From an uncultured bacterium (lineage in GTDB: Bacteria; Patescibacteriota; Minisyncoccia; Phycocordibacterales; UBA918), in NCBI GenBank assembly GCA_965652925.1, contig CBFGXL010000002.1, positions 4,881 to 68,880 on the forward strand: a DNA stretch of 64,000 nucleotides, given 5' to 3'. Positions 38,084 to 60,425 of this stretch are shown here, piece by piece. Numbering within the stretch: position 1 is the first letter of the stretch; each line of letters starts with the position of its first letter. Below the pieces are notes generated by a model. The model made no database searches and was not told where the DNA came from. It saw only the letters and a list, made by a program, of their open reading frames with translations. The position numbers and the translations under genes are program-made.

Positions 38084-40078
38084 TTAAAGGTCTGTGATTT
38101 TCTTCTGAGAAGTAGTGGCAAACTCAAATTCTTCCACGAACCATTCATCAAAGTGGCGTGAGAGGTATTCTGAACCCTCGACACTCAAATGATCGTCATC
38201 TCTGTAGAGTAACAGTCCTTCTTCCTGCAGATAATTGATACACTTATCGTTTGGACAGATCGCTTCATAGGGATCATACACATGCACATTTTCATACTTC
38301 TTCTCTACGTTTACCAGTAGATTGCGCACCTTCTCGGAGCGCTTCATATCTTCAGATTTTTTTACCGTGCAATACTTCCCCAAGATTACACATGATTCAG
38401 GACCCGAGGTGAAAACCGGCGTGGGCGCTATGAATATAATATTGATGTCATTGTCTACTTCCTGGATATATGCATTTAAATTTTCATGGATAAGCTCCTC
38501 ATTGTACTGCTTCTGATCTAAGTAGAGAGAGACAACGTAGTAAACTTCGGCAAAAGTTTTTTTAATATTGTCCAACTCTGCAGATCTCTCCGAGAGTATG
38601 GCTTTCTCAATATCATCTTCTCTACTGTCTGTGAAAATTTCGCGGGGAAATGTCCTGAAGTACAAATTTTCTACCGCATCAGTATTGTTGAACATGGGTA
38701 CAAAATGCATTGCATGACTATCGCCCGTGAGAAAAAAGATACTACCCTCGTTTGTCTGCTCCAAACACTCTTTTTTTAGCCCGGCTTGCTCAGTTGAGCT
38801 CCCTTTTGCGGCGCATACCTCCTCAACCCTGGTCCCATTGATCTCGAAGTTCGGCTGAATCCTTTCACCCAGACTGAAATTCTTTTCGATATAGTTAAAA
38901 GAAGCTAGCCTGCTATCCAATGAGTTCAAACTTTCGTTGACCACTTTTTTTGAATTATTAAATCCGTATACCCCCACACCAATCGAGAACACGAGCAATA
39001 TCAATACGCCCAGAGCTCCAAGGTACTTCAACTTCTGATCCAGGAAAACAGAATATCTGAGTGGCTTTTCAACTACATAATAGGAAAGTAAGGCAAAAAC
39101 AATGACGGCAGTAACTGATACAAGATAAAATACAGTATCAGTGAGGTACAGATTAGCAAAGTAAATCACCGGCAAATGCCATAAGTACAGTGAGTAAGAA
39201 ATTTTGCCGGCGAAAACCAAAACCTTAGTTTCAAGCCACGCGACTACACCACTCACCCGGTTAATACCAGCATATATAATTCCCGCAGTACCAAGCGTGA
39301 TACCCAGAGTTTCAATATATAGGTTGTTTGTGTATGGTTGCAAAACAAGTACAGCAAGAACAAGGAGAAGCGACAACAACGCCAGCACATTAGTTTTTTG
39401 AGGCAGCGATCTACCTTGAGTTAAGAAGAACAGAGCACACCCTATTCCCAGTTCCCAAAAACGTGCGGTGGGGAAATAAAAATTAGAAAAGATCTCGTGT
39501 GCATGTGAGGCAAAAATTAAATAGAGAATGAGCGATAAACCACCTATAGCCCAGAACAACCACACCAGATTGAGCTTGCGACTACGCATATAGTAAAGAC
39601 CAAGTGCCAACAACATGGGATACGCAAAATAAAATTGTTCTTCCACGCCCAATGACCACGTATGCAGCAAAGGATTGATTAGGTCTTGCGCAAAGTAATC
39701 ATCCCCGTGATGCAAAAAATAAAGATTTGATACAGCGAATATTGACGAAATACTACTCTTTATAAAAAGATTCGTGTCCCAAAGAAAACCGACCAAGATA
39801 TACCCGACGGTTGTGGCACTTACCATCGTCAACAGGGCCGGATAAAGCCGCTTAAAACGCTTCTGGTAGAACTTGCCAATGTTGATCTTCCCTGTTCTTA
39901 AGTAGTCCTGATACAGAGATTGGGAAATTACGAAGCCGGAAATAACAAAAAATACATCTACTCCCAAGTATCCAGATGGAAAGAAAGTTGGTTGCAGGTG
40001 GAAGAGTATAACGAGAATAACGGCGACCGCCCGCAATCCATCAATATAAGGCTTGTATTTAAGGTCAGTTTCAAGCAT
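38084..40078 (-). CDS. OatA-like O-acyltransferase: acyltransferase-3 membrane domain fused to a C-terminal SGNH hydrolase domain.
   Basis: The N-terminal ~370 aa are polytopic with the Acyl_transf_3 start (YIDGLRAVAVILVILFHL, GVDVFFVISGF). The C-terminal domain carries GDSH (FFLTGDSHAMHF). Confidence 0.75.
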   Translation of the reverse strand: MLETDLKYKPYIDGLRAVAVILVILFHLQPTFFPSGYLGVDVFFVISGFVISQSLYQDYLRTGKINIGKFYQKRFKRLYPALLTMVSATTVGYILVGFLWDTNLFIKSSISSIFAVSNLYFLHHGDDYFAQDLINPLLHTWSLGVEEQFYFAYPMLLALGLYYMRSRKLNLVWLFWAIGGLSLILYLIFASHAHEIFSNFYFPTARFWELGIGCALFFLTQGRSLPQKTNVLALLSLLLVLAVLVLQPYTNNLYIETLGITLGTAGIIYAGINRVSGVVAWLETKVLVFAGKISYSLYLWHLPVIYFANLYLTDTVFYLVSVTAVIVFALLSYYVVEKPLRYSVFLDQKLKYLGALGVLILLVFSIGVGVYGFNNSKKVVNESLNSLDSRLASFNYIEKNFSLGERIQPNFEINGTRVEEVCAAKGSSTEQAGLKKECLEQTNEGSIFFLTGDSHAMHFVPMFNNTDAVENLYFRTFPREIFTDSREDDIEKAILSERSAELDNIKKTFAEVYYVVSLYLDQKQYNEELIHENLNAYIQEVDNDINIIFIAPTPVFTSGPESCVILGKYCTVKKSEDMKRSEKVRNLLVNVEKKYENVHVYDPYEAICPNDKCINYLQEEGLLLYRDDDHLSVEGSEYLSRHFDEWFVEEFEFATTSQKKITDL

Positions 40079-40124
40079 GGGGGATGTGATGACCCCAACA
40101 CTATAGCACGGAAGGCTCAGTAGA

Positions 40125-41783
40125 TTATCGAATCGAAATCTTCCCTTGTTCTTTCAGGTAGTCGATCACTGCCTGCGCATGTTTTTCAGGAGTACCATCT
40201 GAAGTGTCGATGGTAAGTTCCGGTTGCACAGGTACTTCGTACGGATCGCTGATACCAGTGAATTGCTTGAGAATACCTTTTCGAGCTTTTTCATAGAGCC
40301 CTTTTACATCACGCGCCTCACATACCTCAAGTGGAGTTGAAACATGCACCTCGACAAAGGTTCCATACTGTTCAACCAGTTCTCGTGCTTTTTCTCGCGC
40401 TTGAGCATATGGCGCAATGAGGGCACAGACAGCAATACCGCCATGCTTCGTAATCTCACTTGCCACATACCCTACACGCTGCACGTTAAGGTCACGGTGC
40501 TCTTTAGAGAACCCAAGCTCTGACGTGAGGTGGTTACGGATCACGTCACCATCAAGCAACGTCACCTCTCTGTCCTGAATTTCGAGGAGTTTCGTTGCAA
40601 GGATTTTTGCAAGTGTTGACTTTCCTGATCCAGAGAGGCCCGTGAAGAAAACCGTCACACCCCTCCGTTTTTGTTTTGCAACACCTATCTGCAACTCTGC
40701 GATACTCTCAGGGAATGAGAACCACGAAGGGATCTCCTCTCCTGCAAGGAGCATACGACGAAACTCTGTACCAGAAATGTTTGCAAACTCCTCCCCTTCT
40801 GTAAGTTCATCAGTACTTGCGTATGCATCACGGCTGGGTACATAGGCAAGCTCGTCACTTGAAACCACCTCGATGCCGATCTCTTGCGCATACTTGAGAG
40901 CATTCTCTCGAGCTTCATATGGTCCGTAGAACGGTTCACCTTTGCTATTCTTCCCCGGACCTGCGTGATCGCGTCCCACGATGAAGTGTGTTGCGCCATA
41001 ATTCTTCCTCACAATCATGTGCCAGAGTACTTCACGCGGACCTGCCATACGCATTGCGAGTGGCAGAAGTGAGAGAAAGGTGAAGTCCTTTCCGTATTTT
41101 TCACACACGACGCGATACGTATGCACACGGGTGATATAGTCAATATCACCCTCTTTGGTCATACCAACCACAGGATGCACCAAAACTGGAAGACCTGTCT
41201 TTTCGTGTGCGCGCTTCACAAGCTCGAAGTGTGCACGGTGCATTGGATTGCGCGTCTGAAATGCGACAACCTTATCCCAACCTTTTTCTTTAAAAACGGC
41301 TTTGAGCTCTACTGGTGTATAGCGATACTCTTTGAAGTCATGGCGTGCTTCAAGTTGTAGCTTATGAATGGTTCCGCCGATATAGAGGTCGTGCATCTGG
41401 TTCATCACATACCGCACCCCTGGATGCATAAGGTCATCAGTACCGTAGACTCCTTCCACTTCAGTCTCTTTATTGGGCGCATACCGAGACTCGATATCCA
41501 TAACGGCAAGCGGATTGCCATACTGGTCGCACAATACAATCGACTCTCCCACTTCGAATTCAGCACTATTAGGAACATCAAGCACAATTGGTATCGGAAA
41601 GAGCGTACCATCGGAGAGACGCATTTCTTTGACAACTCGATGGTAGTCAGCTTCATTCATAAAACCGGTAAGCGGAGCGAATCCACCCACCATGAGCATC
41701 TCGAGGTCAAAAAGCTGTCGATCTTTGAGGTTATATCGTTTTAGACTAAGTGTAGTTTGAATTGAATAGGCGGCCTCTGACAT
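40125..41783 (-). CDS. Bifunctional sulfate adenylyltransferase (ATP sulfurylase) / adenylylsulfate kinase, i.e. PAPS synthase.
   Basis: The N-terminal part has the ATP-sulfurylase motifs QTRNPMHRAH and VGRDHAGPG. The C-terminal ~180 aa have APS kinase motifs (FFTGLSGSGKST, LDGDVIRNHL..LGFS.EHR). Confidence 0.85.
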   Translation of the reverse strand: MSEAAYSIQTTLSLKRYNLKDRQLFDLEMLMVGGFAPLTGFMNEADYHRVVKEMRLSDGTLFPIPIVLDVPNSAEFEVGESIVLCDQYGNPLAVMDIESRYAPNKETEVEGVYGTDDLMHPGVRYVMNQMHDLYIGGTIHKLQLEARHDFKEYRYTPVELKAVFKEKGWDKVVAFQTRNPMHRAHFELVKRAHEKTGLPVLVHPVVGMTKEGDIDYITRVHTYRVVCEKYGKDFTFLSLLPLAMRMAGPREVLWHMIVRKNYGATHFIVGRDHAGPGKNSKGEPFYGPYEARENALKYAQEIGIEVVSSDELAYVPSRDAYASTDELTEGEEFANISGTEFRRMLLAGEEIPSWFSFPESIAELQIGVAKQKRRGVTVFFTGLSGSGKSTLAKILATKLLEIQDREVTLLDGDVIRNHLTSELGFSKEHRDLNVQRVGYVASEITKHGGIAVCALIAPYAQAREKARELVEQYGTFVEVHVSTPLEVCEARDVKGLYEKARKGILKQFTGISDPYEVPVQPELTIDTSDGTPEKHAQAVIDYLKEQGKISIR

Positions 41784-41902: not shown

Positions 41903-43153
41903 ATGCCTATTGACCACCTTTTAACCTCTTTAAGCAGGAAGCTGAAACTGGATTTGCATTACTTTGCAAAAGGAGGTTTTTGGCTTCTAGTTGCACAGGG
42001 TGGAACTATTATTGGTTCACTGCTAGGAACTATTGTCTTTGCCAATATCCTTACCGAAGAAAGTTATGGAATCTACCGCTATTTGGTTGCTCTTGCTGTT
42101 TTGTTTAGCACTTTTTCTCTGACGGGAATTACTCAGTCAGTGTTGCAAACAGCAGCAAAAGGCCATACAGAATTTTTTCCTTATGCAATACGAATAAGTC
42201 TTATATACAATCTTGGCACAACTATCACAGGGCTCGGCGGATCGATCTATTATTATATAAACGAAAATTTTCTTCTCTCGACTGGGTGTATCTTAATTGC
42301 AATCTTCCAACCTCTAATAGCATCATTTCAAAACACTACTCCTCTACTCCAAGGACTGAAGATGTTCAAACAATCTGCGTTATTGCAGATTGTTAAGACA
42401 ATGGTAATTACAATAGCTGGAATTATCACGGTCTATTTTACAAAGGATGTGGTAATACTTTTTCTTGTTTTTCTTTTTTCACAAACTTTTGCAAACGTAG
42501 TTGGCTCCCTTTTTTTTATTATCAAAAATGTCTCGAGTGCTGAACTTAGAGAAGATATAAAGAATCGTTATTTAAATTATGCTCGACATTTAAGTATTCA
42601 AAACATAATTATTGGCATCTCCACTAGGATTGACAATGTCATTGTATTTCAACACTTAGGAGCTGCAAATCTTGCACTCTTTAGCATTGCAACAGTAATT
42701 CCAGATCAGATAAAAGGTGCGAGCAAAAATCTTGTTACACTTTTGATTCCAAAATTTGCTAAACATTCATCACTCGAAGAGGTGAAGTTAAAAATACCAA
42801 AGAGAAGCATACAACTATTTATTGTGCTGTTTTTGTGCAGCGCCCTTTTGATATGTATCATTCCATTTATCTATGAAGTGTTTTTCCCAAAGTACATAAA
42901 AGCTATCCCATACTCTCAGCTTTTATTGCTTTCCCTACCTGCTTCTATATACTTTGTTCCACTAACTGCTCTACAGTCACATCTCAAAGACAAGGAACTA
43001 TATTTGCTTAATGTTTATTCAGCAATGTTTCAAATATTAGTAACCTTGGTGTTGATTTATGCACTGGGCTTACTCGGAGCAATAGCATCGAGAATCATAT
43101 CTAGATACTTTCAGACTGTATTGACTTTTGTCATTATTCAGAGAACAGATTAA
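41903..43153 (+). CDS. Wzx-like polysaccharide/oligosaccharide flippase (MOP superfamily).
   Basis: It is 416 aa with ~12 predicted TM helices and the typical polysaccharide-biosynthesis-protein organisation. It is one of only two plus-strand genes. Confidence 0.65.
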   Translation: MPIDHLLTSLSRKLKLDLHYFAKGGFWLLVAQGGTIIGSLLGTIVFANILTEESYGIYRYLVALAVLFSTFSLTGITQSVLQTAAKGHTEFFPYAIRISLIYNLGTTITGLGGSIYYYINENFLLSTGCILIAIFQPLIASFQNTTPLLQGLKMFKQSALLQIVKTMVITIAGIITVYFTKDVVILFLVFLFSQTFANVVGSLFFIIKNVSSAELREDIKNRYLNYARHLSIQNIIIGISTRIDNVIVFQHLGAANLALFSIATVIPDQIKGASKNLVTLLIPKFAKHSSLEEVKLKIPKRSIQLFIVLFLCSALLICIIPFIYEVFFPKYIKAIPYSQLLLLSLPASIYFVPLTALQSHLKDKELYLLNVYSAMFQILVTLVLIYALGLLGAIASRIISRYFQTVLTFVIIQRTD

Positions 43154-43779
43154 ATTTTTGTCTTTGAATATACGACCAAATATCCAAGGGGAATTTTTTC
43201 AGTTAAGCTTCTATACTTCCTTGAAATTTTATTAAGGGATCTATCCAATGAAACTACAATTTTTTGTAAGGAATTACGCAAAAAGTTAGTCGGTACAGCG
43301 TTGCGAATAAGCTGAAAAAAAAGTGAGAGTGGCCCAAAACCTAAGGGGTATATATTTTCAACACTCAAAGCATATTTCTCTGCCAATCGTCTATAAGCTG
43401 AAACGGTATACCTTAAATAGTCATCAGGTGACCCATGTATGTGGTACATAAATGGTGCCGCAATTACAATTTTGCCTCCATTTTTCACACAACGAACCTG
43501 CTCACTGAATACATTTTCAAATTCAAATACGTGTTCCATAACATTCAAACAAATTGCATGGTCGTATGAAGCATCTTCGAAGGGAAACCTCTTTTCTATA
43601 TCTACAAAGAAATCTGGTTCGCACGCATTATCAATATTAATTACGGTAAAACTATGTTCACCTTTAATGAGTTTATGATATCCGGACCTTTTGCTTCCCC
43701 CAACGTCAAGAATGCTACCCTCTAACTGCAATTCTCCTATTAGTCGATATTCTTCATTGCGAATGATTGAGTAATTCAT
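43150..43779 (-). CDS. Class I SAM-dependent methyltransferase (Methyltransf_11-like).
   Basis: It has motif I ILDVGGSKRSGY, a post-I acidic residue, and motif II/III. Confidence 0.65.
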   Translation of the reverse strand: MNYSIIRNEEYRLIGELQLEGSILDVGGSKRSGYHKLIKGEHSFTVINIDNACEPDFFVDIEKRFPFEDASYDHAICLNVMEHVFEFENVFSEQVRCVKNGGKIVIAAPFMYHIHGSPDDYLRYTVSAYRRLAEKYALSVENIYPLGFGPLSLFFQLIRNAVPTNFLRNSLQKIVVSLDRSLNKISRKYRSLTEKIPLGYLVVYSKTKI

Positions 43780-44567
43780 TGAGTTTTCTTAACAGCTTTT
43801 ATAATAAATCGATGAGGGTTTGAGAGGTTTACTTTTTCAATGGTATGATCGCTAAACTTAGATATGAATTCCTCTGCATCTTTAATCAGATCAGCATGCA
43901 CCTCCCCAATGTAAGCATCTGCAAATTCAAGCGGGTTACTGTCACCGAAAAGAGCCTCTTCCGCTCCCTCAATGTCAAACTTAATGATATTTGCTCGATC
44001 AGTATTACATATACGTAGAAGTGATTGAAGTGTGTGGACAGGTACAGAAACGATATTCTTGACATCCGAACGGGATTTGAAAGAATTGCCAAGACTACTT
44101 GCAACGATATTCAGATCGGCAAAACCATCTTTTTCAGCAACACCCGCTTGGATTGGAGTTATTTTTGAGATGCCTGAGGTATTTTTCAGGAGTCTTTTAA
44201 AAGTTTCCGGTGCTGGCTCAACTGCGTAAATGTGCGCATCAGGGTACTTTAAATGATAGTACAAAGTTGTATCACCAAAGTGGGCCCCTAGATCCAGAAT
44301 AACCTTGGGTTCTGCTCCAAAATCCCAGTTGTACTCACCTAAAAGAAAAACCTCACTGAGTGCTGCTAAGTCAACAATTGACTCAATATAAACATTAAAA
44401 GGTTTATTCAAATAGATTAAATTAAAGCGCATTTCTTTACCACGCAAAAAAGTTTTACGAGTAAGAGCGAAGTACCACAGCTGTAAAATGAGAATCACCG
44501 TACGCAAGTACGAGCCTCCTGAAAAGGCGCTGGCAAGCCTTGGTATTAAATTAAAAAGTATGTACAT
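43776..44567 (-). CDS. FkbM-family methyltransferase.
   Basis: ILDLGAHFGDTTLYY, IYAVEPAPETFKRL and IIKFDIEGAEEAL are characteristic of Methyltransf_21/FkbM. It overlaps the upstream gene by 4 bp. Confidence 0.75.
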   Translation of the reverse strand: MYILFNLIPRLASAFSGGSYLRTVILILQLWYFALTRKTFLRGKEMRFNLIYLNKPFNVYIESIVDLAALSEVFLLGEYNWDFGAEPKVILDLGAHFGDTTLYYHLKYPDAHIYAVEPAPETFKRLLKNTSGISKITPIQAGVAEKDGFADLNIVASSLGNSFKSRSDVKNIVSVPVHTLQSLLRICNTDRANIIKFDIEGAEEALFGDSNPLEFADAYIGEVHADLIKDAEEFISKFSDHTIEKVNLSNPHRFIIKAVKKTQ

Positions 44568-44582
44568 AATTAAAATTACATC

Positions 44583-53991: not shown

Positions 53992-54072
53992 ACCATAAAT
54001 CTAACCATATCTTTGAGATAAAAGGTACGCAGACCGTATACAGAATGGTCTATTCACTGTATATTTCTCTGT

Positions 54073-55086
54073 ATGTCAAATAGGCCGCTTTTTGTGGTTT
54101 CCCTTGATTTTGAACTGTATTGGGGCATGTTCGACAAGGTGACACTCGATACGTACGGAGAGAACATCAAGGGAGTCCACGAAGCTATCCCTGAGCTTCT
54201 CTCGCTCTTCGAAAAATACGGTGTGCACGCCACCTGGGCAGTGGTTGGCATGCTCATGTGTAGAAGCAAAGACGAACTGATGAGCCTTTTGCCCGAACCC
54301 TCTTTGCGTCCGCAGTACGACGATATGCGGTTATCGGCGTATGAACATATTCTTCATACAAACATCGGCGAAAACGAACAGAACGACCCATATCACTACG
54401 GACACTCATTGGTTGAGATGATCCTCCGTACGCAACACCAAGAACTCGGCAGTCACACCTTTTCGCACTACTATGCGCAAGATGGCAGCAATAATGGCGA
54501 AGCCATTTTTGCTGCCGACTGCGCAGCATTCAGAAACGTTTCGGAACGCTTCGGCGCGAAGATCACCTCGATTGTCTTCCCTCGCAATCAGACAAGTCCT
54601 GAGGCGCTTCGTGTCTGTAAACAATTCGGTTATCAGGTCTACCGAGGCACACCTGATCATTTCCTCTACACCGGCAAAAAGGAAAAAGAACAAACAAATA
54701 TTTTCCTGCGGATCCTGCGCTTGATCGACGCTTACATCAATATCAGCGGTCACCACAGCTATCCCATTAACAGCGTCAGTGAACCAATTCTCAGTAACGT
54801 GCCCGGCAGCAGATTCCTGCGGCCGTATTCACATTCGCTGCGTCTTATAGAGCGCCTGCGCATTGCGCGCATCAAGAAAAGCATGACTTATGCTGCAACA
54901 CATGGTGAGGTATTTCATCTCTGGTGGCACCCGCACAACTTTGGAACCAACCGCAAAGAGAATCTCGCAAATCTCATTGAGATCCTGGAACACTTTAAAG
55001 ACCTACAAACTTTGTACGGTATGGAGAGCGCAACTATGCAGGAGGTTGCTACACGCGCGAACGAATCAGCTGCTTCAGTTTCTTAG
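54073..55086 (+). CDS. Polysaccharide deacetylase-family protein (CE4-like, WalW/PEP-CTERM-locus type).
   Basis: FVVSLDFELYWGMFD plus His-rich downstream motifs. Its 3' end overlaps the convergent PHP gene by 38 bp. Confidence 0.55.
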   Translation: MSNRPLFVVSLDFELYWGMFDKVTLDTYGENIKGVHEAIPELLSLFEKYGVHATWAVVGMLMCRSKDELMSLLPEPSLRPQYDDMRLSAYEHILHTNIGENEQNDPYHYGHSLVEMILRTQHQELGSHTFSHYYAQDGSNNGEAIFAADCAAFRNVSERFGAKITSIVFPRNQTSPEALRVCKQFGYQVYRGTPDHFLYTGKKEKEQTNIFLRILRLIDAYINISGHHSYPINSVSEPILSNVPGSRFLRPYSHSLRLIERLRIARIKKSMTYAATHGEVFHLWWHPHNFGTNRKENLANLIEILEHFKDLQTLYGMESATMQEVATRANESAASVS

Positions 55087-55846
55087 GAAGCCGCAGTCCG
55101 AATAGAGCCAAGAAGGCATTGGTTCGTTTACCCAGCCCAATAACAGTGAGCGAAATAAAACTGAGCAGATTATGTTGAATGCTACCACTACCTCTCCACA
55201 GCCCTGTTGGCGAGACCGCTATTTTGGATGTTCCAAAGACATATTGCCCCTCTTTAAGCGCCCTGATGATAGCATCCGAGGTCACGTGTTCTACATCTAT
55301 GGAAATAAGCGGGGCACCGAAATGTTCTCTGCGATGGAAATCTAAACCTCCCGTTGCGAAAAGCCCTTCGTTCTTTTCCTGCAAGGATCGTAAAAGCTGA
55401 GCAGCTCGTGGACGAGGGACGAGCTTGCCATCGTACTGCTGATTCCAGATCTCAACTCCATCAATCACATCTTTGAGTACCTGATCCACTACAAAGCGAT
55501 TACGAACCGGGTGTGCCAAGACGGTCAGTGCCGCGCGCTCTGCCCATTGAGCAAGAGTGTACTCATCAGCAACTTGTCCCAGAAATGTCTCCGTACCCAA
55601 AAACAGAACATGCGCATCCTTGTACGGTACCTCAAATCCAGGAATAAAAACAAACTGGCTTCCCGAAAGCGACTTACATTCCTGCACAAACAGCTGAGCT
55701 TCCTCTATGGTCAGTTTGTCTGTGTGTTCTGTTAAAAAACAGAATGTTATACCTTCTTTCTGCAGAAAGGATTTCAGAGCAGAAAGGTTCTCTTTCCCAT
55801 CATATGAGTAGGTTGAATGCACATGCGCTACGCCTTTGATTTCCAT
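55049..55846 (-). CDS. PHP-domain metal-dependent phosphoesterase.
   Basis: The N-terminal GVAHVHSTYSYDG (HxH...D) and the later TEHTD/H motifs are typical of the PHP family. Confidence 0.55.
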   Translation of the reverse strand: MEIKGVAHVHSTYSYDGKENLSALKSFLQKEGITFCFLTEHTDKLTIEEAQLFVQECKSLSGSQFVFIPGFEVPYKDAHVLFLGTETFLGQVADEYTLAQWAERAALTVLAHPVRNRFVVDQVLKDVIDGVEIWNQQYDGKLVPRPRAAQLLRSLQEKNEGLFATGGLDFHRREHFGAPLISIDVEHVTSDAIIRALKEGQYVFGTSKIAVSPTGLWRGSGSIQHNLLSFISLTVIGLGKRTNAFLALFGLRLPKKLKQLIRSRV

Positions 55847-57021
55847 TTGTTCAGTATATCAAGATATTCAAAAAGAGCGGGCACCGGGTCAGACCACGAG
55901 AAAATATCATCTTTTGAAATGAAAAATTCTTTTTTAAAATCATAGAGTGCCCGCAGGCGTGATGGATAGAGTATTTTTCGCAACGGATCGCGAGCAAAAA
56001 GAACGGCAATAAGCCATTTACAGTCGCCAAGAAAATGACGGGTACGAACGCGGCGCGGCAACGAAGTCTGCAGCTTACTTACCGCACCGCGTGCAAGCGC
56101 GTAGGTGATCAAAGGAAAATCGACGCCTGCTCTAACAGCAAGCGGCAAAGAGCCCCAAAACCGTCCATTGATCTCCATCAAGAGTACTTGCCCTGTTTCC
56201 GTATCGATCTTAAACTCGACCATTGCTGGCCCAGTCCATGCTAAACGACGCATAAGCGCATATGCATATTCGTGCATCATGCGCACTTCATCAGTTTCAG
56301 ACGCCGTTTCCTTCACCACTGCTGCGCCCCCGCGTGGTGAGAGACTTCGAATACGTTTATGTGCGAACGAAGCGAGCACTTCCCCACGATCGCACACCAC
56401 CTCAATACCATACTCATCACCCTCCACAAATTTCATTACCAAAGGTGCTTCTCCGGTTGCTTTGTAGACCGTATTGTATGTTGATTCAAGTTCATTACGA
56501 GAAAACACGAATGCAGCAGAACCAGAAACCGGCTTCTCTTCTTTCCAAACAAGACTGTGCCGATTTTTCACAACCGCTGGATACAAAATTGTGTCCCATG
56601 CCTCCTTATTGTAGATATTGATAGTGGGTATAGAAAGTTCTGAAGCAAGTGCGTAAGTTCTTTCTTTATCTGCAGCGATCTCTACTGATTCGAGGCTTGG
56701 CATGGGCATAACCGCGTACGGAGTTATACGGTCATACTCCCTTGCAAGTAAAAGAGATGTAGCATCGCTAAAAGCAAATATAACTGGCTTTTCTCCAGAC
56801 TCATCATATAGCTTCTTGGACTGGGCGATGATGTCTTCTACAAAGCCTACTGGGTCAGTCTTTGCTGATGAATATATGAAATGACGACGAACGAATCGGC
56901 TGTGACAAGCCATGGCTGTACTACGCTCAGCTGCGCACACAACACTAACGCCCTGTGCCCCCAACGAACGAACAGCACAGAGCGCGCTTTTGAGTTGACC
57001 ATCGAGAACAATCGCCGTCAT
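55828..57021 (-). CDS. ATP-grasp domain protein (likely a glycan-modifying ligase).
   Basis: It has a central ATP-grasp fold (YPAVVKNRHS..., PAMVEFKIDTETGQVLLMEINGRFWGS). The ORF-track start at 57078 adds 19 residues that would overlap the upstream gene by 55 bp; the ATG at 57021 gives a 4-bp overlap instead. Confidence 0.65.
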   Translation of the reverse strand: MTAIVLDGQLKSALCAVRSLGAQGVSVVCAAERSTAMACHSRFVRRHFIYSSAKTDPVGFVEDIIAQSKKLYDESGEKPVIFAFSDATSLLLAREYDRITPYAVMPMPSLESVEIAADKERTYALASELSIPTINIYNKEAWDTILYPAVVKNRHSLVWKEEKPVSGSAAFVFSRNELESTYNTVYKATGEAPLVMKFVEGDEYGIEVVCDRGEVLASFAHKRIRSLSPRGGAAVVKETASETDEVRMMHEYAYALMRRLAWTGPAMVEFKIDTETGQVLLMEINGRFWGSLPLAVRAGVDFPLITYALARGAVSKLQTSLPRRVRTRHFLGDCKWLIAVLFARDPLRKILYPSRLRALYDFKKEFFISKDDIFSWSDPVPALFEYLDILNKWKSKA

Positions 57022-57023
57022 AT

Positions 57024-58172
57024 CTATTGCGTTAGAGCATTGAACATGTCTTCCATGTCCCTTGAAACAATATCCCAATTGTACTTTGCAATTACCATTT
57101 CTTGTGCCTGACTCAACATACTCTCTCTATGCTGTGCATCAAGAGTCTGTATCTTTCGCACTGCGCTAGCAATACTCTCTGGATTTTCAATCTCGACCAT
57201 GAATCCAGTCTTGCCATCCGTGAGGAAATCTGGGATTCCACCTGCATTGGTTCCGATAACTATCATACGAGCAGCCATGGCTTCCAAGAACGCGTTGCCG
57301 AGCCCTTCTGACAAAGATGGGCGAATAAAAATATCAGATGCCTTCATTAGAAGTGGCAGTTCTTTCGGGTCGACAAAGCCCATGAACTTGACCCGACGAG
57401 TAAGACCCATGCGTTCCACCTGCGCTTTGATCTCCCCATCAAGTGATCCACTTCCGCACACCACAAAACATACATTTTCAGGCAACAGAGCCAGAGCAGA
57501 GACGACATCACCTATGCCATTTTTCTTCTCAAGCCGAGAACTTGTGAAGAGAATAAGCGCATCATCTGGAAAACCAAAAGACGAGCGCTTTGCCTGGATA
57601 TCTTCAGGGGAAAATGACCGTGTGAACGCATCAACAGCAACGCCATTGGGTATCACCTTTCCTGCTTTACCCTTAAAACCCATCTGTGTACCCCAGTTCA
57701 AGAGGTAGTTCGATATCGCCTGAATGCCATCTGCTGAAGCAAAGATATTGTTGAACGATTTCCGTACAAACCGAACTCGATTGTAAATATAATCAAAGGA
57801 GTCACCCTCTTGAAGCGTAAGTAAAAGCGGGACGCCGGTCTTTTTCTTGACACGAACTGCAGCGAATGCTCCATAGCTCGCCATGATAGACCACAAGAGA
57901 TCGTATCTCTGTTTTCGCATAAGCTTGTAAGCACAGAAGTGTCCGAACAACGCGAGAATAAAACCATCAACTTTAGGGATACCAAATCCCATACGGTAGA
58001 TGTTTACGTTGCCTACTTTTTCAAAATCCTTCACGTTCTTGCGGAGCTTTGCACAGATAAGATCGAATTCGATATGCGGCAGGCGTTGTGTGATATTGCC
58101 AAACGCCTGTTCTGCCCCGCCTGCTGGGACCAAATGGTCGTCAGTAGAGAAAATAAGTATCCGTTTTGCCAT
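57024..58172 (-). CDS. GT4-family glycosyltransferase.
   Basis: It has a Glycos_transf_1 domain (SSRLEKKNGIGDVV...SLSEGLGNAFLEAMAARMIVIGTNAGGIPD). Confidence 0.8.
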   Translation of the reverse strand: MAKRILIFSTDDHLVPAGGAEQAFGNITQRLPHIEFDLICAKLRKNVKDFEKVGNVNIYRMGFGIPKVDGFILALFGHFCAYKLMRKQRYDLLWSIMASYGAFAAVRVKKKTGVPLLLTLQEGDSFDYIYNRVRFVRKSFNNIFASADGIQAISNYLLNWGTQMGFKGKAGKVIPNGVAVDAFTRSFSPEDIQAKRSSFGFPDDALILFTSSRLEKKNGIGDVVSALALLPENVCFVVCGSGSLDGEIKAQVERMGLTRRVKFMGFVDPKELPLLMKASDIFIRPSLSEGLGNAFLEAMAARMIVIGTNAGGIPDFLTDGKTGFMVEIENPESIASAVRKIQTLDAQHRESMLSQAQEMVIAKYNWDIVSRDMEDMFNALTQ

Positions 58173-58268: not shown

Positions 58269-58919
58269 TCAGAAATCGCTGGAGAAGAGGCGGTAGGCCG
58301 AAAGCGTGGCGATAAGCACCATGCTTCTGGTTGATGCATCCTCGAATGATCCGGCCTTGATCATCTCCTCGATCTCTTCGGGGAAGAAGAACTTGGCCTT
58401 GTAGATCTTCTCCCCGCGCTCAGGCGCGATCGCCTGGAGCTTGGACAGGTCTGCCTCGAGAGCGACAAACGGGCTCCACGAAGCTGTGGTCGTCTCGTTC
58501 GTGATGAACTTGCCGAGATCGTGGGTCTCTTTGATGACCCCTGCACCGGCTTCTTCGCCCGCCTCGCGGAGTGCGCCCTCCACCACCGACTCGCCTTCAT
58601 TGACGAACCCCCGCGGAGGTCCCCAGAACGCAAGCGAAGTCTCCCCGTCTGCCGGCGCCGCCGTGTCCCTGGCTTCCTTCACCAAGCCGATCTTCATGCC
58701 GAAGTCGACGGGGTCATGGCCATAGAGGACGGTGATGACGTGGGGCCCTTCAACCGTGATCAGACGGTCGAAGATGGCTGTGCCGTCGGGTTTGCACACC
58801 ACTGCGTGCTCGATGCGGCCATAACGGCCGCCGTCGTAGCCTTCTGGGGTCGGGACCCATTTGGGAGCCACTCCCTCCGGCCACTTCACGAGTGGGTCAG
58901 TTATCAGTCGTTTAGGCAC
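58269..58919 (-). CDS. Nudix hydrolase (NDP-sugar / ADP-ribose pyrophosphatase-like), high-GC and probably horizontally acquired.
   Basis: It carries the Nudix box GFVNEGESVVEGALREAGEEAGAGV. It has an apparent GTG start at 58919 preceded by AAAGGAGGT (rc of 58923..58931). It is about 60% GC against roughly 40-48% elsewhere. Confidence 0.75.
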   Translation of the reverse strand: MPKRLITDPLVKWPEGVAPKWVPTPEGYDGGRYGRIEHAVVCKPDGTAIFDRLITVEGPHVITVLYGHDPVDFGMKIGLVKEARDTAAPADGETSLAFWGPPRGFVNEGESVVEGALREAGEEAGAGVIKETHDLGKFITNETTTASWSPFVALEADLSKLQAIAPERGEKIYKAKFFFPEEIEEMIKAGSFEDASTRSMVLIATLSAYRLFSSDF

Positions 58920-58967
58920 TGCTACCTCCTTTGAACAGATTCAACTAATATGATACTACAAAAATGC

Positions 58968-60425
58968 TTATTTGTCAATACTCTGTGTTCGCTTCCGAAG
59001 CATGTTCGAATAGGCAAAACGGACTTGGTTTGCGAACGCGTCCCCTTGTCCGATCGAACGGATCAGCGTTGTGCGCTTGCTGATAGAGATGGCAGCATGC
59101 GCTTCGTGCGTATCGTCGGCGTACACCTGATCCGCCCGGCCGAGAATGTGCTTCAGTACCAAGCGTACATGCCAAGGTATATTGCCGAGCTTCTGGTCGG
59201 CAAGCGTAATGAGGAGAGGAGCTCTCTCTCTTCCCCGCGCAAAGAGTGCAGCAAGTGCTCCGTAACTTGCAAACAGCGCCCACTTGAACATATAGCTGTG
59301 CTCTTTCTGCAGCTGTCGAGCTATGCGCGCACCCGCAAAAGGCAGTAGGAACTTATCAGAAACATGGCCGCGCCCCACTCTGTAAAGCTTCACATTAGGA
59401 AGCGCGCATTCATCAGCCATTGCGCCTTTGGAGAATTTTGTCGTAATGACATCGAAATGGATGTTGGGCATTGCGGACATGAGGTCGCACAGTGCATACT
59501 CGGCCCCTCCTGCATCCGGGAAAAAAGTGGTTGAAAAGACGAGTACTCTTTTTTCGGTCTGTTGCACAGAACCAACTTCGGCCTTGATCTCCTGTATATA
59601 TGTCGGAAGATCGCGCTTTGCCTCCCACCCAAGCGCTTTTGTCTGCGCGTTATCGACTCCGCCATGTATGCGGTTCCCTTTGCGCTCAGGCATCATGATC
59701 ACTTCCCCGCCGAACATGGAAGCCACCTGAAGTACGCTGTATGCAGTATCAGCACCGATCCCATAACCATCACCCTGCCCTTTTTCGGACACGAGGAGCA
59801 ATCCGTCGACGATATCGGAAACATGCGTGAAGTTTCGCTCCTGCGTACCTGGACTCGTGACCGTCAGCGGCTGTCCGTTGCGGTAAAGCTCGGTGAAAAT
59901 GCGTATGAGCGTACCGTATGGGCCCGACATCTCACGCGGACCGTACACGTTGTAGAAATAAGCTATGGCATACTCAAGGCCGAACCATTGTGCGTAGTTG
60001 CACACGAGCTCTGTGTTCGTTGCCTTCATCCATGCGTAGGGACTTTGGTTGCGCCCGTCGCCTCCATCGGCAAACTTCGTTGACGACCCTGCGTATACAA
60101 GCTTGCATCCCTTGCGGCGGCAGAACTCCAGCACTGCAAATGTCCCTGGTTTGTTGAGGTCCCATACCAGTTCTATGTCTTCAAAGCTTTTTTCAGTGCG
60201 TGCATATTCTCCAAGATGAAATACGAGGTCAGGCGTCTCAGGGATAAGTGCTGCTATATCCTTCGTATGTCCAGTTCGATACTCTACTCCCTCAACATGG
60301 TTATTGGGTGTACCGGTGAAATAATTATCGAGTGAGATGACTGTATGACCATCACCAACAAGCCGCTCGCATAAATGCGATCCAATAAATCCAGCTCCTC
60401 CTGTGACCAAAATAGTTTTTGCCAT
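58968..60425 (-). CDS. Fusion ORF: extended-SDR NDP-sugar epimerase/dehydratase (UDP-glucuronate decarboxylase/dTDP-glucose dehydratase-like, ~300 aa) joined in-frame to a ~185-aa GT4 N-terminal (Glyco_trans_4-like) domain that lacks the catalytic C-terminal half.
   Basis: The N-terminal part reads MAKTILVTGGAGFIGSHLCERL...YAGSS...Y..YG. From ~aa 300 it reads KRVLVFSTTFFPDAGGAEYA, a GT4 N-domain signature, then terminates after ~185 aa. Confidence 0.65.
   Translation of the reverse strand: MAKTILVTGGAGFIGSHLCERLVGDGHTVISLDNYFTGTPNNHVEGVEYRTGHTKDIAALIPETPDLVFHLGEYARTEKSFEDIELVWDLNKPGTFAVLEFCRRKGCKLVYAGSSTKFADGGDGRNQSPYAWMKATNTELVCNYAQWFGLEYAIAYFYNVYGPREMSGPYGTLIRIFTELYRNGQPLTVTSPGTQERNFTHVSDIVDGLLLVSEKGQGDGYGIGADTAYSVLQVASMFGGEVIMMPERKGNRIHGGVDNAQTKALGWEAKRDLPTYIQEIKAEVGSVQQTEKRVLVFSTTFFPDAGGAEYALCDLMSAMPNIHFDVITTKFSKGAMADECALPNVKLYRVGRGHVSDKFLLPFAGARIARQLQKEHSYMFKWALFASYGALAALFARGRERAPLLITLADQKLGNIPWHVRLVLKHILGRADQVYADDTHEAHAAISISKRTTLIRSIGQGDAFANQVRFAYSNMLRKRTQSIDK

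What the first reader, a model, noticed from the sequence alone, without database searches (positions are those of the whole stretch)
38084..60425. Large surface-glycan locus that includes PAPS synthesis plus a sulfotransferase, implying a sulfated, methylated, acetylated cell-surface polysaccharide
Within ~22 kb are six GT4 glycosyltransferases, two or three NDP-sugar epimerase/dehydratases, a Wzx-like flippase, an OatA-like acyltransferase, FkbM and class-I methyltransferases, a hexapeptide acetyltransferase, two deacetylases, HAD/Nudix/YvcK sugar-nucleotide housekeeping genes and a PHP/ATP-grasp pair. A fused ATP-sulfurylase/APS-kinase (40125..41783) lies 4 kb from a canonical PAPS-dependent sulfotransferase (45866..46696). 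No other sulfur-assimilation genes such as cysH, cysI or cysJ are visible, so the PAPS is probably made as a sulfate donor. Sulfated glycans are uncommon in bacteria; known examples are rhizobial Nod factors/LPS, mycobacterial sulfolipids and some cyanobacterial EPS. The 42-48 kb core is markedly AT-rich, as expected for a variable O-antigen-like island.
Basis: partly seen in the sequence, partly recalled or inferred. Interest (0 to 1): 0.75.

Follow-up and report, generated by a model that had tools for sequence, protein, structure and literature searches.

The report
Sulfated surface-glycan locus in a CPR bacterium
An ultra-small, reduced-genome (CPR/Patescibacteria) bacterium carries, inside its cell-surface sugar-chain gene cluster, its own factory for the activated sulfate donor PAPS and a heparan-sulfate-type sulfotransferase; the arrangement is conserved across its relatives, so these poorly known bacteria probably coat themselves with sulfated sugars.

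Summary
40125-41783(-) is an intact bifunctional ATP sulfurylase/APS kinase. 45866-46696(-) is a PAPS-type sulfotransferase (ST) with all catalytic residues. Both sit in a glycan locus; the only correction is five complete GT4 genes, not six.

New findings:
- **Organism:** the window comes from a Patescibacteria (CPR) genome, Paceibacteria/Kaiserbacteria-like.
- **Not a one-off island:** the gene order ATP-grasp, PHP, YvcK, four GT4 genes with an SDR, ST, CE4 deacetylase, variable block, Wzx, Sat/CysC, Wzy_C-TPR, MurB, SecA recurs in at least three other genomes. There the ST lies 9-13 kb from Sat/CysC.
- **Conserved pair:** in 19 CPR loci the ST is followed directly by a PgaB/PplD-like CE4 deacetylase. 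In the window the two genes share an ATGA overlap.
- **ST type:** it belongs to the heparan-sulfate 3-OST/NST branch.
- **Natural fusions:** the ST occurs fused to GT4 glycosyltransferases, once also with a deacetylase-like domain and a methyltransferase.

No sulfate-reduction gene occurs in the window or in the gene tables of the related loci.

Best reading: PAPS is made as a donor to sulfate a lipid-linked glycan in the cytoplasm. This is a known kind of system, as in rhizobia, Vibrio and cyanobacteria, but I found no report of it in CPR. Sulfation itself, N- versus O-sulfation and the final acceptor remain untested.

The parts
40125..41783 (-). Bifunctional ATP sulfurylase/APS kinase (Sat/CysC), the PAPS synthase. 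It is the first gene of the minus-strand run Sat/CysC, AT3-SGNH, CBM96 protein, hypothetical, Wzy_C-TPR, MurB.
   Evidence: NCBIfam NF004040 scores 804.6 bits (cut-off 669). Pfam finds PUA_2, ATP-sulfurylase and APS_kinase. The motifs QTRNPMHRAH, GRDHAG, GLSGSGKST, LDGDVIR and KGLYEKARKG...FTGISDPYE are intact. GC is 0.480, typical of the genome. Orthologues of 77-85% identity occupy the same position next to Wzx and Wzy_C-TPR/MurB/SecA in L053-L055.
45866..46696 (-). PAPS-dependent sulfotransferase (ST) of the heparan-sulfate 3-OST/NST branch; soluble, with no signal peptide or membrane segment.
   Evidence: Pfam Sulfotransfer_1 scores 87.6 bits. PDB sequence hits are 3rnl at 3e-23, 3-OST-3 at 1.5e-18 and NDST1 at 4e-13. 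The AF2 model has pLDDT 83 and the same Foldseek ranking. K10 (GAQKSGTS), E32-x-H34, R92 and S100 are invariant in 21 orthologues. Maximum hydropathy is 0.66.
45066..45869 (-). CE4 polysaccharide deacetylase (PDA1), translationally coupled to the ST. Its closest solved relatives de-N-acetylate GlcNAc in glycans.
   Evidence: The ATGA overlap with the ST stop codon is at 45866-45869. Pfam Polysacc_deac_1 scores 72.7 bits. TFDDGY, H156, H160 and FAYPFG are invariant. The AF2 model has pLDDT 96.7; Foldseek finds PplD 6dq3 at 2e-15, then PgaB, IcaB and BpsB. It lies immediately downstream of the ST in 19 CPR loci.
46693..52426 (-). Conserved backbone block: GT4a (46693-47724), GT4b (47780-49150), SDR1 sugar-nucleotide epimerase/dehydratase (49190-50179, probable start 50125), GT4c (50142-51281) and GT4d (51287-52426).
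   Evidence: Pfam results are. The same order occurs upstream of the ST in L008, L019, L046, L056 and L057 and in most CPR loci. GT4a overlaps the ST by 4 nt.
41903..45059 (.). Variable, AT-rich decoration block: Wzx-like flippase (41903-43153, +), Methyltransf_11 (43150-43779, -), FkbM methyltransferase (43776-44567, -) and hexapeptide acyltransferase (44583-45059, -).
   Evidence: Pfam results are. GC is 0.35-0.39. In the three relatives resolved end to end the matching interval between PDA1 and Sat/CysC is about 9-13 kb and holds different genes, such as AsnB, a sugar C-methyltransferase, a cupin and extra GT4 genes.
38084..40078 (-). AT3+SGNH (OatA/OafA-type) membrane O-acyltransferase, an accessory gene in this genome.
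   Evidence: Pfam Acyl_transf_3 scores 107 bits and SGNH 78 bits. It is missing at this position in L053-L055.
52423..58172 (.). Second conserved block: weak HAD-like gene (52423-52977, -), YvcK (52981-53991, -), divergent CE4-like deacetylase PDA2 (54073-55086, +), PHP metallo-phosphoesterase (55049-55846, -), ATP-grasp ligase (55828-57078, probable start 57021, -) and GT4e (57024-58172, -).
   Evidence: Pfam and NCBIfam results are. The PDA2/PHP/ATP-grasp trio recurs at 42-56% identity in 10 or more CPR loci. The PHP metal ligands H8, H10, E40, H41, H79, H112, D169 and H171 are invariant. The chemical role of this block is not resolved.
58269..60425 (-). Peripheral genes: Nudix hydrolase (58269-58919) and an SDR fused to a GT4 N-terminal-half paralogue (58968-60425).
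   Evidence: Pfam results are and the fusion. Nudix has GC 0.611 and GC3 0.756, and it is absent from all related loci. A 13-bp terminator-like hairpin at 58227-58198 separates Nudix from GT4e.
33008..35245 (-). Wzy_C (O-antigen ligase/polymerase/O-oligosaccharyltransferase family) membrane protein with C-terminal TPR repeats.
   Evidence: Pfam Wzy_C scores 70.4 bits, plus TPR. Orthologues of 49-63% identity lie directly downstream of Sat/CysC in L054 and L055, and two small genes further on in L053.

Best explanation
The locus is a lineage-conserved cell-surface glycan cluster of a Patescibacteria (CPR; Paceibacteria/Kaiserbacteria-like) bacterium, with its own sulfation module.

**Proposed mechanism**
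1. Sat/CysC converts sulfate and two ATP to PAPS in the cytoplasm.
2. The GT4 enzymes build an oligosaccharide on a lipid carrier at the inner face of the membrane. Precursors are tailored by the SDR enzymes.
3. The soluble sulfotransferase, working next to GT4a, transfers sulfate from PAPS to a hexosamine-type residue of this intermediate. Most likely this is an O-sulfate.
4. The translationally coupled CE4 enzyme de-N-acetylates a GlcNAc-type residue of the same intermediate.
5. The variable block adds strain-specific methyl and acyl groups.
6. Wzx flips the finished unit across the membrane.
7. The Wzy_C-TPR protein polymerises it or transfers it to its final acceptor. The AT3-SGNH enzyme O-acetylates it outside the cell.

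**Status of each step**
- Shown here: gene identities, intact catalytic motifs, synteny, translational coupling and natural fusions.
- Inferred: the acceptor, the position of the sulfate, the order of steps, and the absence of sulfate assimilation elsewhere in the genome.
For: **Enzymes are intact**
- Sat/CysC exceeds the curated equivalog cut-off and keeps all motifs.
- The ST has invariant K10, E32/H34, R92 and S100. Its AF2 model matches 3rnl, HS 3-OSTs and the NDST1 sulfotransferase domain at E 5e-14 to 5e-10. Cytosolic SULTs and TPSTs score only about 1e-5 to 1e-6.

**Lineage**
- 25 of the 27 genome loci with 42% or more ST identity are CPR MAGs.
- Database names on Sat/CysC and PDA1 homologues read Kaiserbacteria or Pacebacteria.
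- MurB, Wzy_C-TPR and SecA synteny ties the window to these MAGs.

**Linkage is conserved**
- The same frame, with the ST 9-13 kb from Sat/CysC, occurs in CAYGKO010000003, JAWVHH010000938 and Ga0395784_0000128.
- Ten further pairs of ST and Sat/CysC homologues share an identical longest-contig length.
- A stand-alone APS kinase lies 7.5 kb from the ST in L020.

**A glycan is the acceptor**
- GT4-ST fusions occur in L026, P0375 and P0380, and an ST-GT4 fusion in P0383.
- P0384 combines deacetylase-like, methyltransferase, GT4 and ST domains in one 1150-aa protein.
- GT4a/ST and ST/PDA1 each overlap by 4 nt.

**Not assimilation**
- No sulfate-reduction domain occurs in the window or in the gene tables of L001-L006 and L053-L057.
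- CPR genomes are reported to hold almost no sulfur-cycle genes, sat being one of the few detected (PMC12153355).

**Precedent**
Against: - There are no biochemical data, so sulfation of any glycan in CPR is untested.
- Only 64 kb of the genome was seen. cysH or sir elsewhere cannot be excluded.
- No sulfate transporter and no recognisable PAP phosphatase (CysQ or NrnA type) lies in the window.
- No initiating phosphoglycosyl transferase or chain-length regulator lies in the window, so the assembly route (Wzx/Wzy-type) is incomplete as seen.
- In most of the genome loci, Sat/CysC is not within 10 kb of the ST. For those genomes co-occurrence is unknown.
- The solved relatives of PDA1 are, to my knowledge, all extracytoplasmic (recalled, not checked here). 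Its proposed cytoplasmic action rests on a weak hydropathy argument (only 3 of 18 orthologues exceed the membrane-helix threshold), a two-helix N-terminus in the AF2 model and the P0384 fusion.
Confidence: 0.72

Rival explanations
1. Split NDST-like route. The CE4 enzyme removes the N-acetyl group of a GlcNAc residue, and the coupled sulfotransferase sulfates the freed amine to give N-sulfoglucosamine, as heparan-sulfate NDST does in animals. This is a special case of the best explanation, not an alternative to sulfation.
For: - ST and CE4 are an invariant adjacent pair in 19 CPR loci, with an ATGA overlap in the window.
- The ST falls in the branch that holds the NDST N-sulfotransferase domain.
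- PDA1's nearest solved relatives are GlcNAc de-N-acetylases: PplD, PgaB and IcaB.
- P0384 joins a deacetylase-like domain and the ST in one polypeptide.
- NDST deacetylases use the same Asp-His-His metal mechanism as CE-family deacetylases (PMC13353177).
Against: - The ST scores higher against 3-O-sulfotransferases than against NST (70 vs 53 bits). To my recollection its E-x-H-F-F motif matches 3-OSTs where NST has Gln at the His position; the alignment shows the His in 3-OST-3 only.
- PDA1 shows no specific similarity to the NDST deacetylase domain, which is absent.
- Adjacency is equally explained by two independent modifications of the same unit.
- I know of no N-sulfated bacterial glycan.
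Confidence: 0.15
2. The sulfated glycan is not a polysaccharide. It is a short O-linked glycan that the Wzy_C-TPR protein, acting as a PglL-like oligosaccharyltransferase, transfers to surface proteins such as pilins, S-layer proteins or the giant adhesin-like proteins encoded nearby.
For: - The Wzy_C family includes O-oligosaccharyltransferases (family knowledge).
- No separate polymerase, ligase or chain-length regulator was found.
- The window encodes two giant repeat proteins (3833 and 2956 aa) and other secreted proteins.
Against: No feature separates a polymerase from a ligase or an O-oligosaccharyltransferase at this level of similarity. Five GT4 genes plus a variable block fit a repeat-unit polymer equally well.
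Confidence: 0.25
3. The sulfotransferase acts on a non-glycan acceptor, such as a small metabolite, lipid, peptide or peptidoglycan precursor, and lies in the glycan cluster only by linkage.
For: The acceptor is not determined. The closest solved structure, 3rnl, has no recorded function in the PDB entry title.
Against: - Four independent fusions join the ST to GT4 glycosyltransferases.
- The position between GT4a and a polysaccharide deacetylase is constant.
- The nearest characterised relatives all sulfate glucosamine residues of a glycan.
Confidence: 0.07
4. Sat/CysC serves assimilatory sulfate reduction (PAPS to sulfite to sulfide), using genes elsewhere in the genome. Its nearness to the sulfotransferase is incidental.
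For: Only 64 kb of the genome was seen. Sat/CysC is in a different transcription unit from the ST, separated by the divergent 119-nt region 41784-41902.
Against: - The position at the edge of the glycan locus is conserved in four genomes.
- No reductase domain occurs in the window or in the gene tables of L001-L006 and L053-L057.
- CPR genomes are reported to lack sulfur-cycle genes other than an occasional sat (PMC12153355), and they generally lack amino-acid biosynthesis (general knowledge).
Confidence: 0.05

Closest known systems
Sulfated capsular/O-antigen clusters of marine Gammaproteobacteria, e.g. Vibrio sp. KMM 8419 (PMC11641403)
   Same: A polysaccharide gene cluster holds extra PAPS-synthesis genes, sulfotransferases, glycosyltransferases, an acyltransferase and a Wzx flippase. 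The sulfated product was confirmed by NMR in that system.
   Different: - PAPS is made there by CysDN plus CysC, as second copies beside housekeeping assimilation genes. Here it is made by one fused homo-oligomeric-type Sat/CysC, and no assimilation genes are seen.
- Export there is by an ABC/Kps system in a diderm cell.
- That locus was not found in other public genomes. Here the frame recurs in at least three further genomes, and ST/Sat-CysC co-occurrence is inferred on ten more contigs.
Rhizobial Nod-factor sulfation: NodPQ (dedicated ATP sulfurylase/APS kinase), NodH (sulfotransferase), NodB (CE4 deacetylase)
   Same: A dedicated PAPS supply, a carbohydrate sulfotransferase and a cytoplasmic CE4 de-N-acetylase act on a GlcNAc-based oligosaccharide for a symbiosis-related surface or signal molecule.
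   Different: - NodPQ is of the CysDN/CysC type.
- NodH is picked up by the Sulfotransfer_3 model, not Sulfotransfer_1 (PMC11625862), and sulfates O-6.
- NodB serves N-acylation, and the product is a secreted lipochitooligosaccharide.
- No NodC-type GT2 is present here.
Animal heparan-sulfate sulfotransferases (3-OST-1/3/5 and the NST domain of NDST1)
   Same: These are the closest characterised relatives by sequence and by predicted fold. They share the 5'-PSB Lys, the 3'-PB Arg/Ser and a Glu catalytic base. In NDST the sulfotransferase is physically coupled to a metal-dependent GlcNAc de-N-acetylase.
   Different: - Those enzymes are Golgi-lumenal type II membrane proteins acting on a finished polymer. 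This one is a soluble cytoplasmic protein.
- The partner deacetylase here is a separate CE4 protein of PgaB/PplD type, not the NDST deacetylase domain.
- The acceptor and the regiochemistry are unknown.
Cyanobacterial sulfated exopolysaccharide (synechan, xss cluster; PMC13125312)
   Same: It is a bacterial Wzx/Wzy-type polysaccharide cluster with dedicated sulfotransferases.
   Different: The host is a free-living phototroph with full sulfur assimilation. I did not test here whether its sulfotransferases belong to the same branch.

Membership tests
PAPS-dependent sulfotransferase superfamily (Pfam Sulfotransfer_1), heparan-sulfate 3-OST/NST branch | 5'-phosphosulfate-binding loop with the catalytic Lys | tested here: met
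   GAQKSGTS with K10, invariant in 21 orthologues. It aligns with GVKKGGTR of 3-OST-3.
PAPS-dependent sulfotransferase superfamily (Pfam Sulfotransfer_1), heparan-sulfate 3-OST/NST branch | 3'-phosphate-binding motif with conserved Arg and Ser | tested here: met
   RNPVDRAIS, with R92 and S100 invariant. It aligns with RDPVTRAIS of 3-OST-3.
PAPS-dependent sulfotransferase superfamily (Pfam Sulfotransfer_1), heparan-sulfate 3-OST/NST branch | Catalytic base (Glu in 3-OST and NST, per PMC11625862) | tested here: met
   E32-I-H34-F-F is invariant and aligns with E-P-H-F-F of 3-OST-3.
PAPS-dependent sulfotransferase superfamily (Pfam Sulfotransfer_1), heparan-sulfate 3-OST/NST branch | Sulfotransferase fold closest to the 3-OST/NST group | tested here: met
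   The AF2 model has pLDDT 83.3 and pTM 0.81. Foldseek gives 3rnl at 4.7e-14, 3-OST-3 at 3e-11 and NDST1 at 3.5e-10, against about 1e-5 to 1e-6 for SULTs and TPSTs.
PAPS-dependent sulfotransferase superfamily (Pfam Sulfotransfer_1), heparan-sulfate 3-OST/NST branch | PAPS-dependent sulfate transfer to a glucosamine residue | not testable with these tools
   This needs an enzyme assay.
Bifunctional sulfate adenylyltransferase/adenylylsulfate kinase (NCBIfam NF004040) | Whole-protein score above the curated equivalog cut-off | tested here: met
   804.6 bits against 669.
Bifunctional sulfate adenylyltransferase/adenylylsulfate kinase (NCBIfam NF004040) | Catalytic motifs intact in both domains, i.e. 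the kinase domain is not a degenerate regulatory copy | tested here: met
   QTRNPMHRAH and GRDHAG are present in the sulfurylase domain. The P-loop GLSGSGKST, LDGDVIR and FTGISDPYE are present in the kinase domain. Motif definitions come from general knowledge of the families.
Wzx/Wzy-dependent surface-glycan pathway | Wzx-type flippase | tested here: met
   Polysacc_synt scores 53.5 bits against a cut-off of 28.2.
Wzx/Wzy-dependent surface-glycan pathway | Wzy polymerase or ligase | tested here: inconclusive
   The Wzy_C domain protein at 33008-35245 scores 70.4 bits. The family does not separate polymerase, ligase and O-oligosaccharyltransferase.
Wzx/Wzy-dependent surface-glycan pathway | Initiating phosphoglycosyl transferase and chain-length regulator in the locus | tested here: not met
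   No Bac_transf, Glycos_transf_4 (WecA/MraY) or Wzz domain occurs in any major ORF of the window. They may lie elsewhere in the genome.
NDST-type N-deacetylase/N-sulfotransferase | Sulfotransferase of the NST type | tested here: inconclusive
   It lies in the same branch as NST but scores higher against 3-OSTs.
NDST-type N-deacetylase/N-sulfotransferase | Deacetylase homologous to the NDST deacetylase domain | tested here: not met
   A PDA1 profile and the AF2 model both hit CE4 enzymes (PplD, PgaB, IcaB). NDST1 entries are absent.
NDST-type N-deacetylase/N-sulfotransferase | Physical or genetic coupling of deacetylase and sulfotransferase | tested here: met
   There is an ATGA overlap in the window, adjacency in 19 CPR loci and one multidomain fusion, P0384.
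NDST-type N-deacetylase/N-sulfotransferase | N-sulfoglucosamine product | not testable with these tools
   This needs product analysis.
CE4 (NodB-homology) metal-dependent deacetylases | Asp-Asp motif plus His-His metal ligands, and the CE4 fold | tested here: met
   TFDDGY (D83, D84), H156 and H160 are invariant. The AF2 model has pLDDT 96.7 and TM-scores of 0.67-0.72 to PplD and PgaB.

The most novel reading that the evidence does not exclude
The translationally coupled CE4 deacetylase and 3-OST/NST-like sulfotransferase form a natural prokaryotic, split equivalent of animal NDST. Together they would make N-sulfoglucosamine (heparan-sulfate-like chemistry) on the surface glycan of a whole clade of CPR episymbionts. 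Such a glycan could serve in attachment to, or mimicry towards, host cells.
Probability: 0.15. Interest if true: 0.85.

Novelty: new member of a known kind. Interest (0 to 1): 0.55.

Why it matters
CPR/Patescibacteria are a large, mostly uncultured part of bacterial diversity. They are thought to live attached to host cells, and almost nothing is known about their surface chemistry.

- **Cost implies function.** A conserved module that spends two ATP per sulfate, in genomes that have shed most biosynthesis, suggests that a sulfated and strongly anionic surface glycan matters for their lifestyle, for example in adhesion, protection or host recognition.
- **It explains stray sat genes.** Metagenomic surveys record sat genes in CPR genomes as 'sulfur-cycle' genes (PMC12153355). 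They are more likely PAPS suppliers for glycan sulfation.
- **Possible tool for heparin engineering.** The ST family is large: more than 120 clusters (at 90% identity) share 59% or more identity with the window ST, and about 3,000 clusters (at 50% identity) match at E ≤ 1e-30. It is bacterial, soluble and related to heparan-sulfate sulfotransferases. That field currently lacks a natural prokaryotic N-deacetylase/N-sulfotransferase (PMC13353177).

Tried and rejected
1. **PHP protein (55049-55846) as the missing PAP phosphatase.** A single-sequence PDB search gave only chance-level hits (E ≥ 0.06). A profile of 11 orthologues hit only TM0559 (2anu), a PHP protein of unknown function. The idea is neither supported nor excluded and is left as speculation.
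2. **PDA1 as a homologue of the NDST deacetylase domain.** Not supported.
3. **PDA1 as a membrane-anchored exported enzyme.** Only 3 of 18 orthologues exceed the hydropathy threshold, and the AF2 model shows two short N-terminal helices. Topology stays unresolved, leaning cytoplasmic.
4. **Function of PDA2 and the ATP-grasp.** PDB sequence searches gave nothing for PDA2 and only carbamoyl-phosphate-synthase-type hits for the ATP-grasp.
5. **Literature.** Searches for sulfotransferases or sulfated glycans in CPR/Patescibacteria found no relevant paper. Two CPR papers that mention sat do so only for other organisms or in a figure abbreviation list.
6. **RNA genes.** There are no tRNA genes and no Rfam matches in the window.
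7. **Promoter and terminator scans.** They gave no more sites than shuffled sequence. Only the 13-bp hairpin at 58227-58198 is worth noting.
8. **Source names.** An exact-sequence cluster look-up gave no organism names for window proteins.
9. **Whole-genome checks.** I therefore could not check related genomes for cysH, cysQ or sulfate permeases.

Full report
**1. Observation**

The 38-60.4 kb stretch is packed with genes, almost all on the minus strand. Confirmed are the AT3+SGNH acyltransferase, the fused ATP sulfurylase/APS kinase (NF004040, 804.6 bits against a curated cut-off of 669) and a Wzx-type flippase. Also confirmed are two methyltransferases, a hexapeptide transferase, two CE4-type deacetylases, a Sulfotransfer_1 protein, two SDR sugar-nucleotide enzymes, YvcK, a PHP/ATP-grasp pair and a Nudix hydrolase.

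There are three corrections. First, there are five complete GT4 genes, not six. The apparent sixth is a 194-residue C-terminal extension of the SDR at 58968-60425. This extension is a paralogue of the N-terminal half of the GT4 at 57024-58172 (37% identity, E 4e-21). Second, the HAD assignment of 52423-52977 is weak. Third, there are two SDR genes, not three.

The AT-rich core is real. Genes from Wzx to GT4a have GC 0.35-0.40, against 0.479 for the window. No domain of assimilatory sulfate reduction occurs in any major ORF of the window.

**2. The two key enzymes look functional**

Sat/CysC keeps the sulfurylase motifs QTRNPMHRAH and GRDHAG. It also keeps the kinase P-loop GLSGSGKST, LDGDVIR and the KGLY...FTGISDPYE segment. 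The kinase domain is therefore not a degenerate regulatory copy.

The sulfotransferase (ST) has GAQKSGTS (K10), E32-I-H34-F-F and RNPVDRAIS (R92, S100). All are invariant in an alignment of 21 orthologues of 59-73% identity. These are the residues a recent review lists as catalytic: Lys in the 5'-PSB loop, Ser in the 3'-PB motif, and Glu as base in 3-OST and NST (PMC11625862).

By sequence, the closest solved structures are a bacterial sulfotransferase with no recorded function (3rnl, 3e-23), then heparan-sulfate 3-OST-3, 3-OST-1 and 3-OST-5, then the NDST1 N-sulfotransferase domain. An AlphaFold model (pLDDT 83.3) gives the same ranking with Foldseek. Cytosolic SULTs and tyrosylprotein sulfotransferases score four to eight orders of magnitude worse. 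The ST has no hydrophobic segment, so it is a soluble cytoplasmic enzyme, as PAPS use requires.

**3. Whose genome this is**

A scan of one genome per species with the ST profile returned 46 loci. Of the 27 with 42% or more identity, 25 are Patescibacteria (CPR) MAGs. They are labelled Kaiserbacteria, Paceibacteria/Paceibacterota, Magasanikbacteria, Patescibacteria group or 'uncultured Saccharibacteria'. Source names on Sat/CysC and deacetylase homologues say the same.

The window shares housekeeping synteny (Wzy_C-TPR, MurB, SecA, Obg) with these MAGs. Identities are 47-63% for Wzy_C-TPR and MurB; SecA and Obg were matched by domain annotation. The exact locus also occurs on 22 metagenome contigs. 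This context matters because CPR genomes are reported to hold almost no sulfur-cycle genes, sat being one of the few detected (PMC12153355). They also generally lack amino-acid biosynthesis (general knowledge).

**4. The linkage is conserved, not accidental**

Comparison of the window genes with all fetched loci and the gene tables of five further contigs gives a common frame:

ATP-grasp, PHP, (PDA2 on the opposite strand), YvcK, [HAD-like], GT4d, GT4c, SDR1, GT4b, GT4a, ST, CE4 deacetylase (PDA1), [variable block], Wzx (opposite strand), Sat/CysC, Wzy_C-TPR, MurB, SecA.

The distance from the ST to Sat/CysC varies with the variable block:

| Contig | ST to Sat/CysC |
|---|---|
| Window | 4 kb |
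| CAYGKO010000003 | about 9.3 kb |
| JAWVHH010000938 | about 12 kb |
| Ga0395784_0000128 | about 13.4 kb |

The variable block holds different methyltransferases, GT4 genes, an asparagine-synthase-like gene, a sugar C-methyltransferase and cupins. Ten further ST and Sat/CysC homologue pairs have identical longest-contig lengths. This is an inference of co-residence, not a direct observation. A stand-alone APS kinase lies near the ST in L020 and L030.

Sat/CysC has the genome's typical GC (0.480). The block from Wzx to GT4a is AT-rich. So the AT-rich segment is wider than the segment that varies in gene content (41.9-45.06 kb). It includes the conserved genes ST, PDA1 and GT4a, which suggests replacement of the whole block by recombination with a lower-GC relative (inference).

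**5. What the sulfotransferase acts on**

Three kinds of evidence point to the GT4-built glycan:
- **Tight coupling.** GT4a and the ST overlap by 4 nt. The ST stop and the PDA1 start share ATGA.
- **Constant position.** The ST sits between GT4a and PDA1 in 19 CPR loci.
- **Natural fusions.** GT4-ST fusions occur in L026 (673 aa), P0375 and P0380, and an ST-GT4 fusion in P0383. P0384 is a 1150-aa protein with deacetylase-like (DUF2334/CE4), methyltransferase, GT4 and ST domains.

All characterised relatives of the ST sulfate glucosamine residues of a glycan.

PDA1 has the CE4 Asp-Asp and His-His ligands. Its confident model (pLDDT 96.7) is closest to PplD, PgaB, IcaB and BpsB, which de-N-acetylate GlcNAc in glycans. 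To my knowledge those enzymes are extracytoplasmic (recalled, not checked here). PDA1 has no clear signal peptide or membrane helix: only 3 of 18 orthologues exceed the hydropathy threshold, and the model shows two short N-terminal helices. The P0384 fusion also places a deacetylase-like domain in the same polypeptide as cytoplasmic enzymes. I therefore lean towards cytoplasmic action, but this is not settled.

**6. Mechanism proposed**

1. Sat/CysC makes PAPS.
2. The GT4 enzymes assemble a hexosamine-containing unit on a lipid carrier.
3. The ST sulfates it and PDA1 de-N-acetylates it.
4. The variable block methylates and acylates it.
5. Wzx flips it across the membrane.
6. The Wzy_C-TPR protein polymerises or transfers it, and the AT3-SGNH enzyme O-acetylates it outside the cell.

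Gene identities, motifs, coupling, synteny and fusions are shown here. The acceptor, the regiochemistry and the final carrier are inferred.

Gaps remain. No initiating transferase, chain-length regulator, sulfate transporter or recognisable PAP phosphatase is in the window. I tested whether the conserved PHP protein might be the PAP phosphatase. A profile of 11 orthologues found only TM0559, a PHP protein of unknown function, so this stays a guess.

**7. Rivals**

- **Assimilation (0.05).** It is disfavoured by the conserved position of Sat/CysC at the edge of the glycan locus, by the absence of reductase domains in the window and in the related gene tables, and by the CPR background. It cannot be excluded without the whole genome.
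- **A non-glycan acceptor (0.07).** The fusions argue against it.
- **A protein-linked glycan rather than a polymer (0.25).** This stays open, because Wzy_C proteins include O-oligosaccharyltransferases and the window encodes giant surface proteins.
- **N-sulfation after de-N-acetylation, a split NDST equivalent (0.15).** This is the most novel reading. In its favour are the invariant ST/CE4 pairing and the ST's branch. Against it, similarity to 3-O-sulfotransferases is higher, the deacetylase is unrelated to the NDST deacetylase domain, and I know of no precedent.

**8. Comparison with what is known**

PAPS genes together with sulfotransferases inside a polysaccharide cluster are an accepted hallmark of sulfated polysaccharide synthesis (Vibrio sp. 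KMM 8419, PMC11641403). Rhizobial NodPQ/NodH/NodB and cyanobacterial synechan are further precedents. This locus is therefore a new member of a known kind.

It differs in several ways:
- The host lineage is CPR. Four literature searches found nothing on CPR sulfotransferases or sulfated glycans.
- The PAPS synthase is a single fused protein.
- The ST is of the 3-OST/NST type and is coupled to a CE4 enzyme.
- The frame is conserved across a clade, with a hypervariable insert.

The ST family is large. More than 120 clusters (at 90% identity) share 59% or more identity with the window ST. About 3,057 clusters (at 50% identity) match at E ≤ 1e-30.

**9. Verdict**

The novelty is moderate: a known kind of system in an unexpected, little-studied lineage, where it appears to be a conserved trait.

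- Interest: 0.55
- N-sulfation reading: probability about 0.15, interest about 0.85 if true

Noticed in passing
window 3427-14928 (-) and 14932-23802 (-): Two adjacent giant ORFs of 3833 and 2956 aa. The first has DUF6242, EPTP and a tail-fibre gp53-like C-terminal match. The second has seven LVIVD repeat matches. They are probably giant surface or adhesin proteins and are possible carriers of the glycan.
   Followed up: partly
window 36037-38019 (-): A secreted 660-aa protein with CBM96, FIMAH and Peptidase_C39_2-like domains lies between the acyltransferase and the Wzy_C-TPR gene. It is absent at this position in L053-L055.
   Followed up: no
window 58269-58919 (-): The Nudix gene has GC 0.611 and GC3 0.756, far above the window mean of 0.479. 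It has a GTG start and no counterpart in any related locus. It is probably a recent foreign insertion. A 13-bp terminator-like hairpin follows it at 58227-58198.
   Followed up: partly
window 58968-60425 (-): This is an unusual fusion of an SDR epimerase/dehydratase domain with a copy of only the N-terminal half of a GT4 glycosyltransferase. Homologues of 58-65% identity exist in L017 and L031, so it is not an assembly artefact.
   Followed up: partly
window 54073-57078; L007, L009, L012, L014, L017-L019, L027, L031: The trio of a divergent CE4-like deacetylase (SLDFELYWG motif), a PHP metallo-phosphoesterase and an ATP-grasp ligase is conserved. PHP and ATP-grasp overlap, and the deacetylase converges on PHP with a 38-nt overlap. 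By analogy with deacetylase-plus-ligase pairs in mycothiol and bacillithiol synthesis, it might re-acylate a freed sugar amine. No solved homologue was informative.
   Followed up: partly
L026 8813-10834; proteins P0375, P0380, P0383, P0384, P0407: Multidomain sulfotransferase proteins occur in metagenomes: GT4-ST, ST-GT4, and a 1150-aa protein with deacetylase-like, methyltransferase, GT4 and ST domains. A 1235-aa protein carries several sulfotransferase domains.
   Followed up: yes
window 60434-61819 (-) and 61797-63761 (-): A Lamin-tail-domain plus PKD surface protein with a C-terminal membrane anchor is followed by a VirD4/TraG/HerA-like coupling ATPase with a long, low-complexity C-terminal tail.
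   Followed up: no
window 28048-29016: An AT-rich gap (GC 0.38) lies between Obg and SecA. The minus-strand ORF 28590-28958 (122 aa) looks like the small Phage_holin_4_2/DUF360-type membrane protein found after SecA in L053 and L054. About 540 nt remain unassigned, with no tRNA or Rfam match.
   Followed up: partly
L020 9224-9745; L030 6901-7416; L041 9276-9797: Stand-alone APS-kinase genes (43-56% identity to the CysC domain) lie within about 10 kb of ST homologues in two other CPR MAGs and in a Kuenenia (anammox) MAG. This hints that ST/PAPS-gene linkage extends beyond the clade studied.
   Followed up: no
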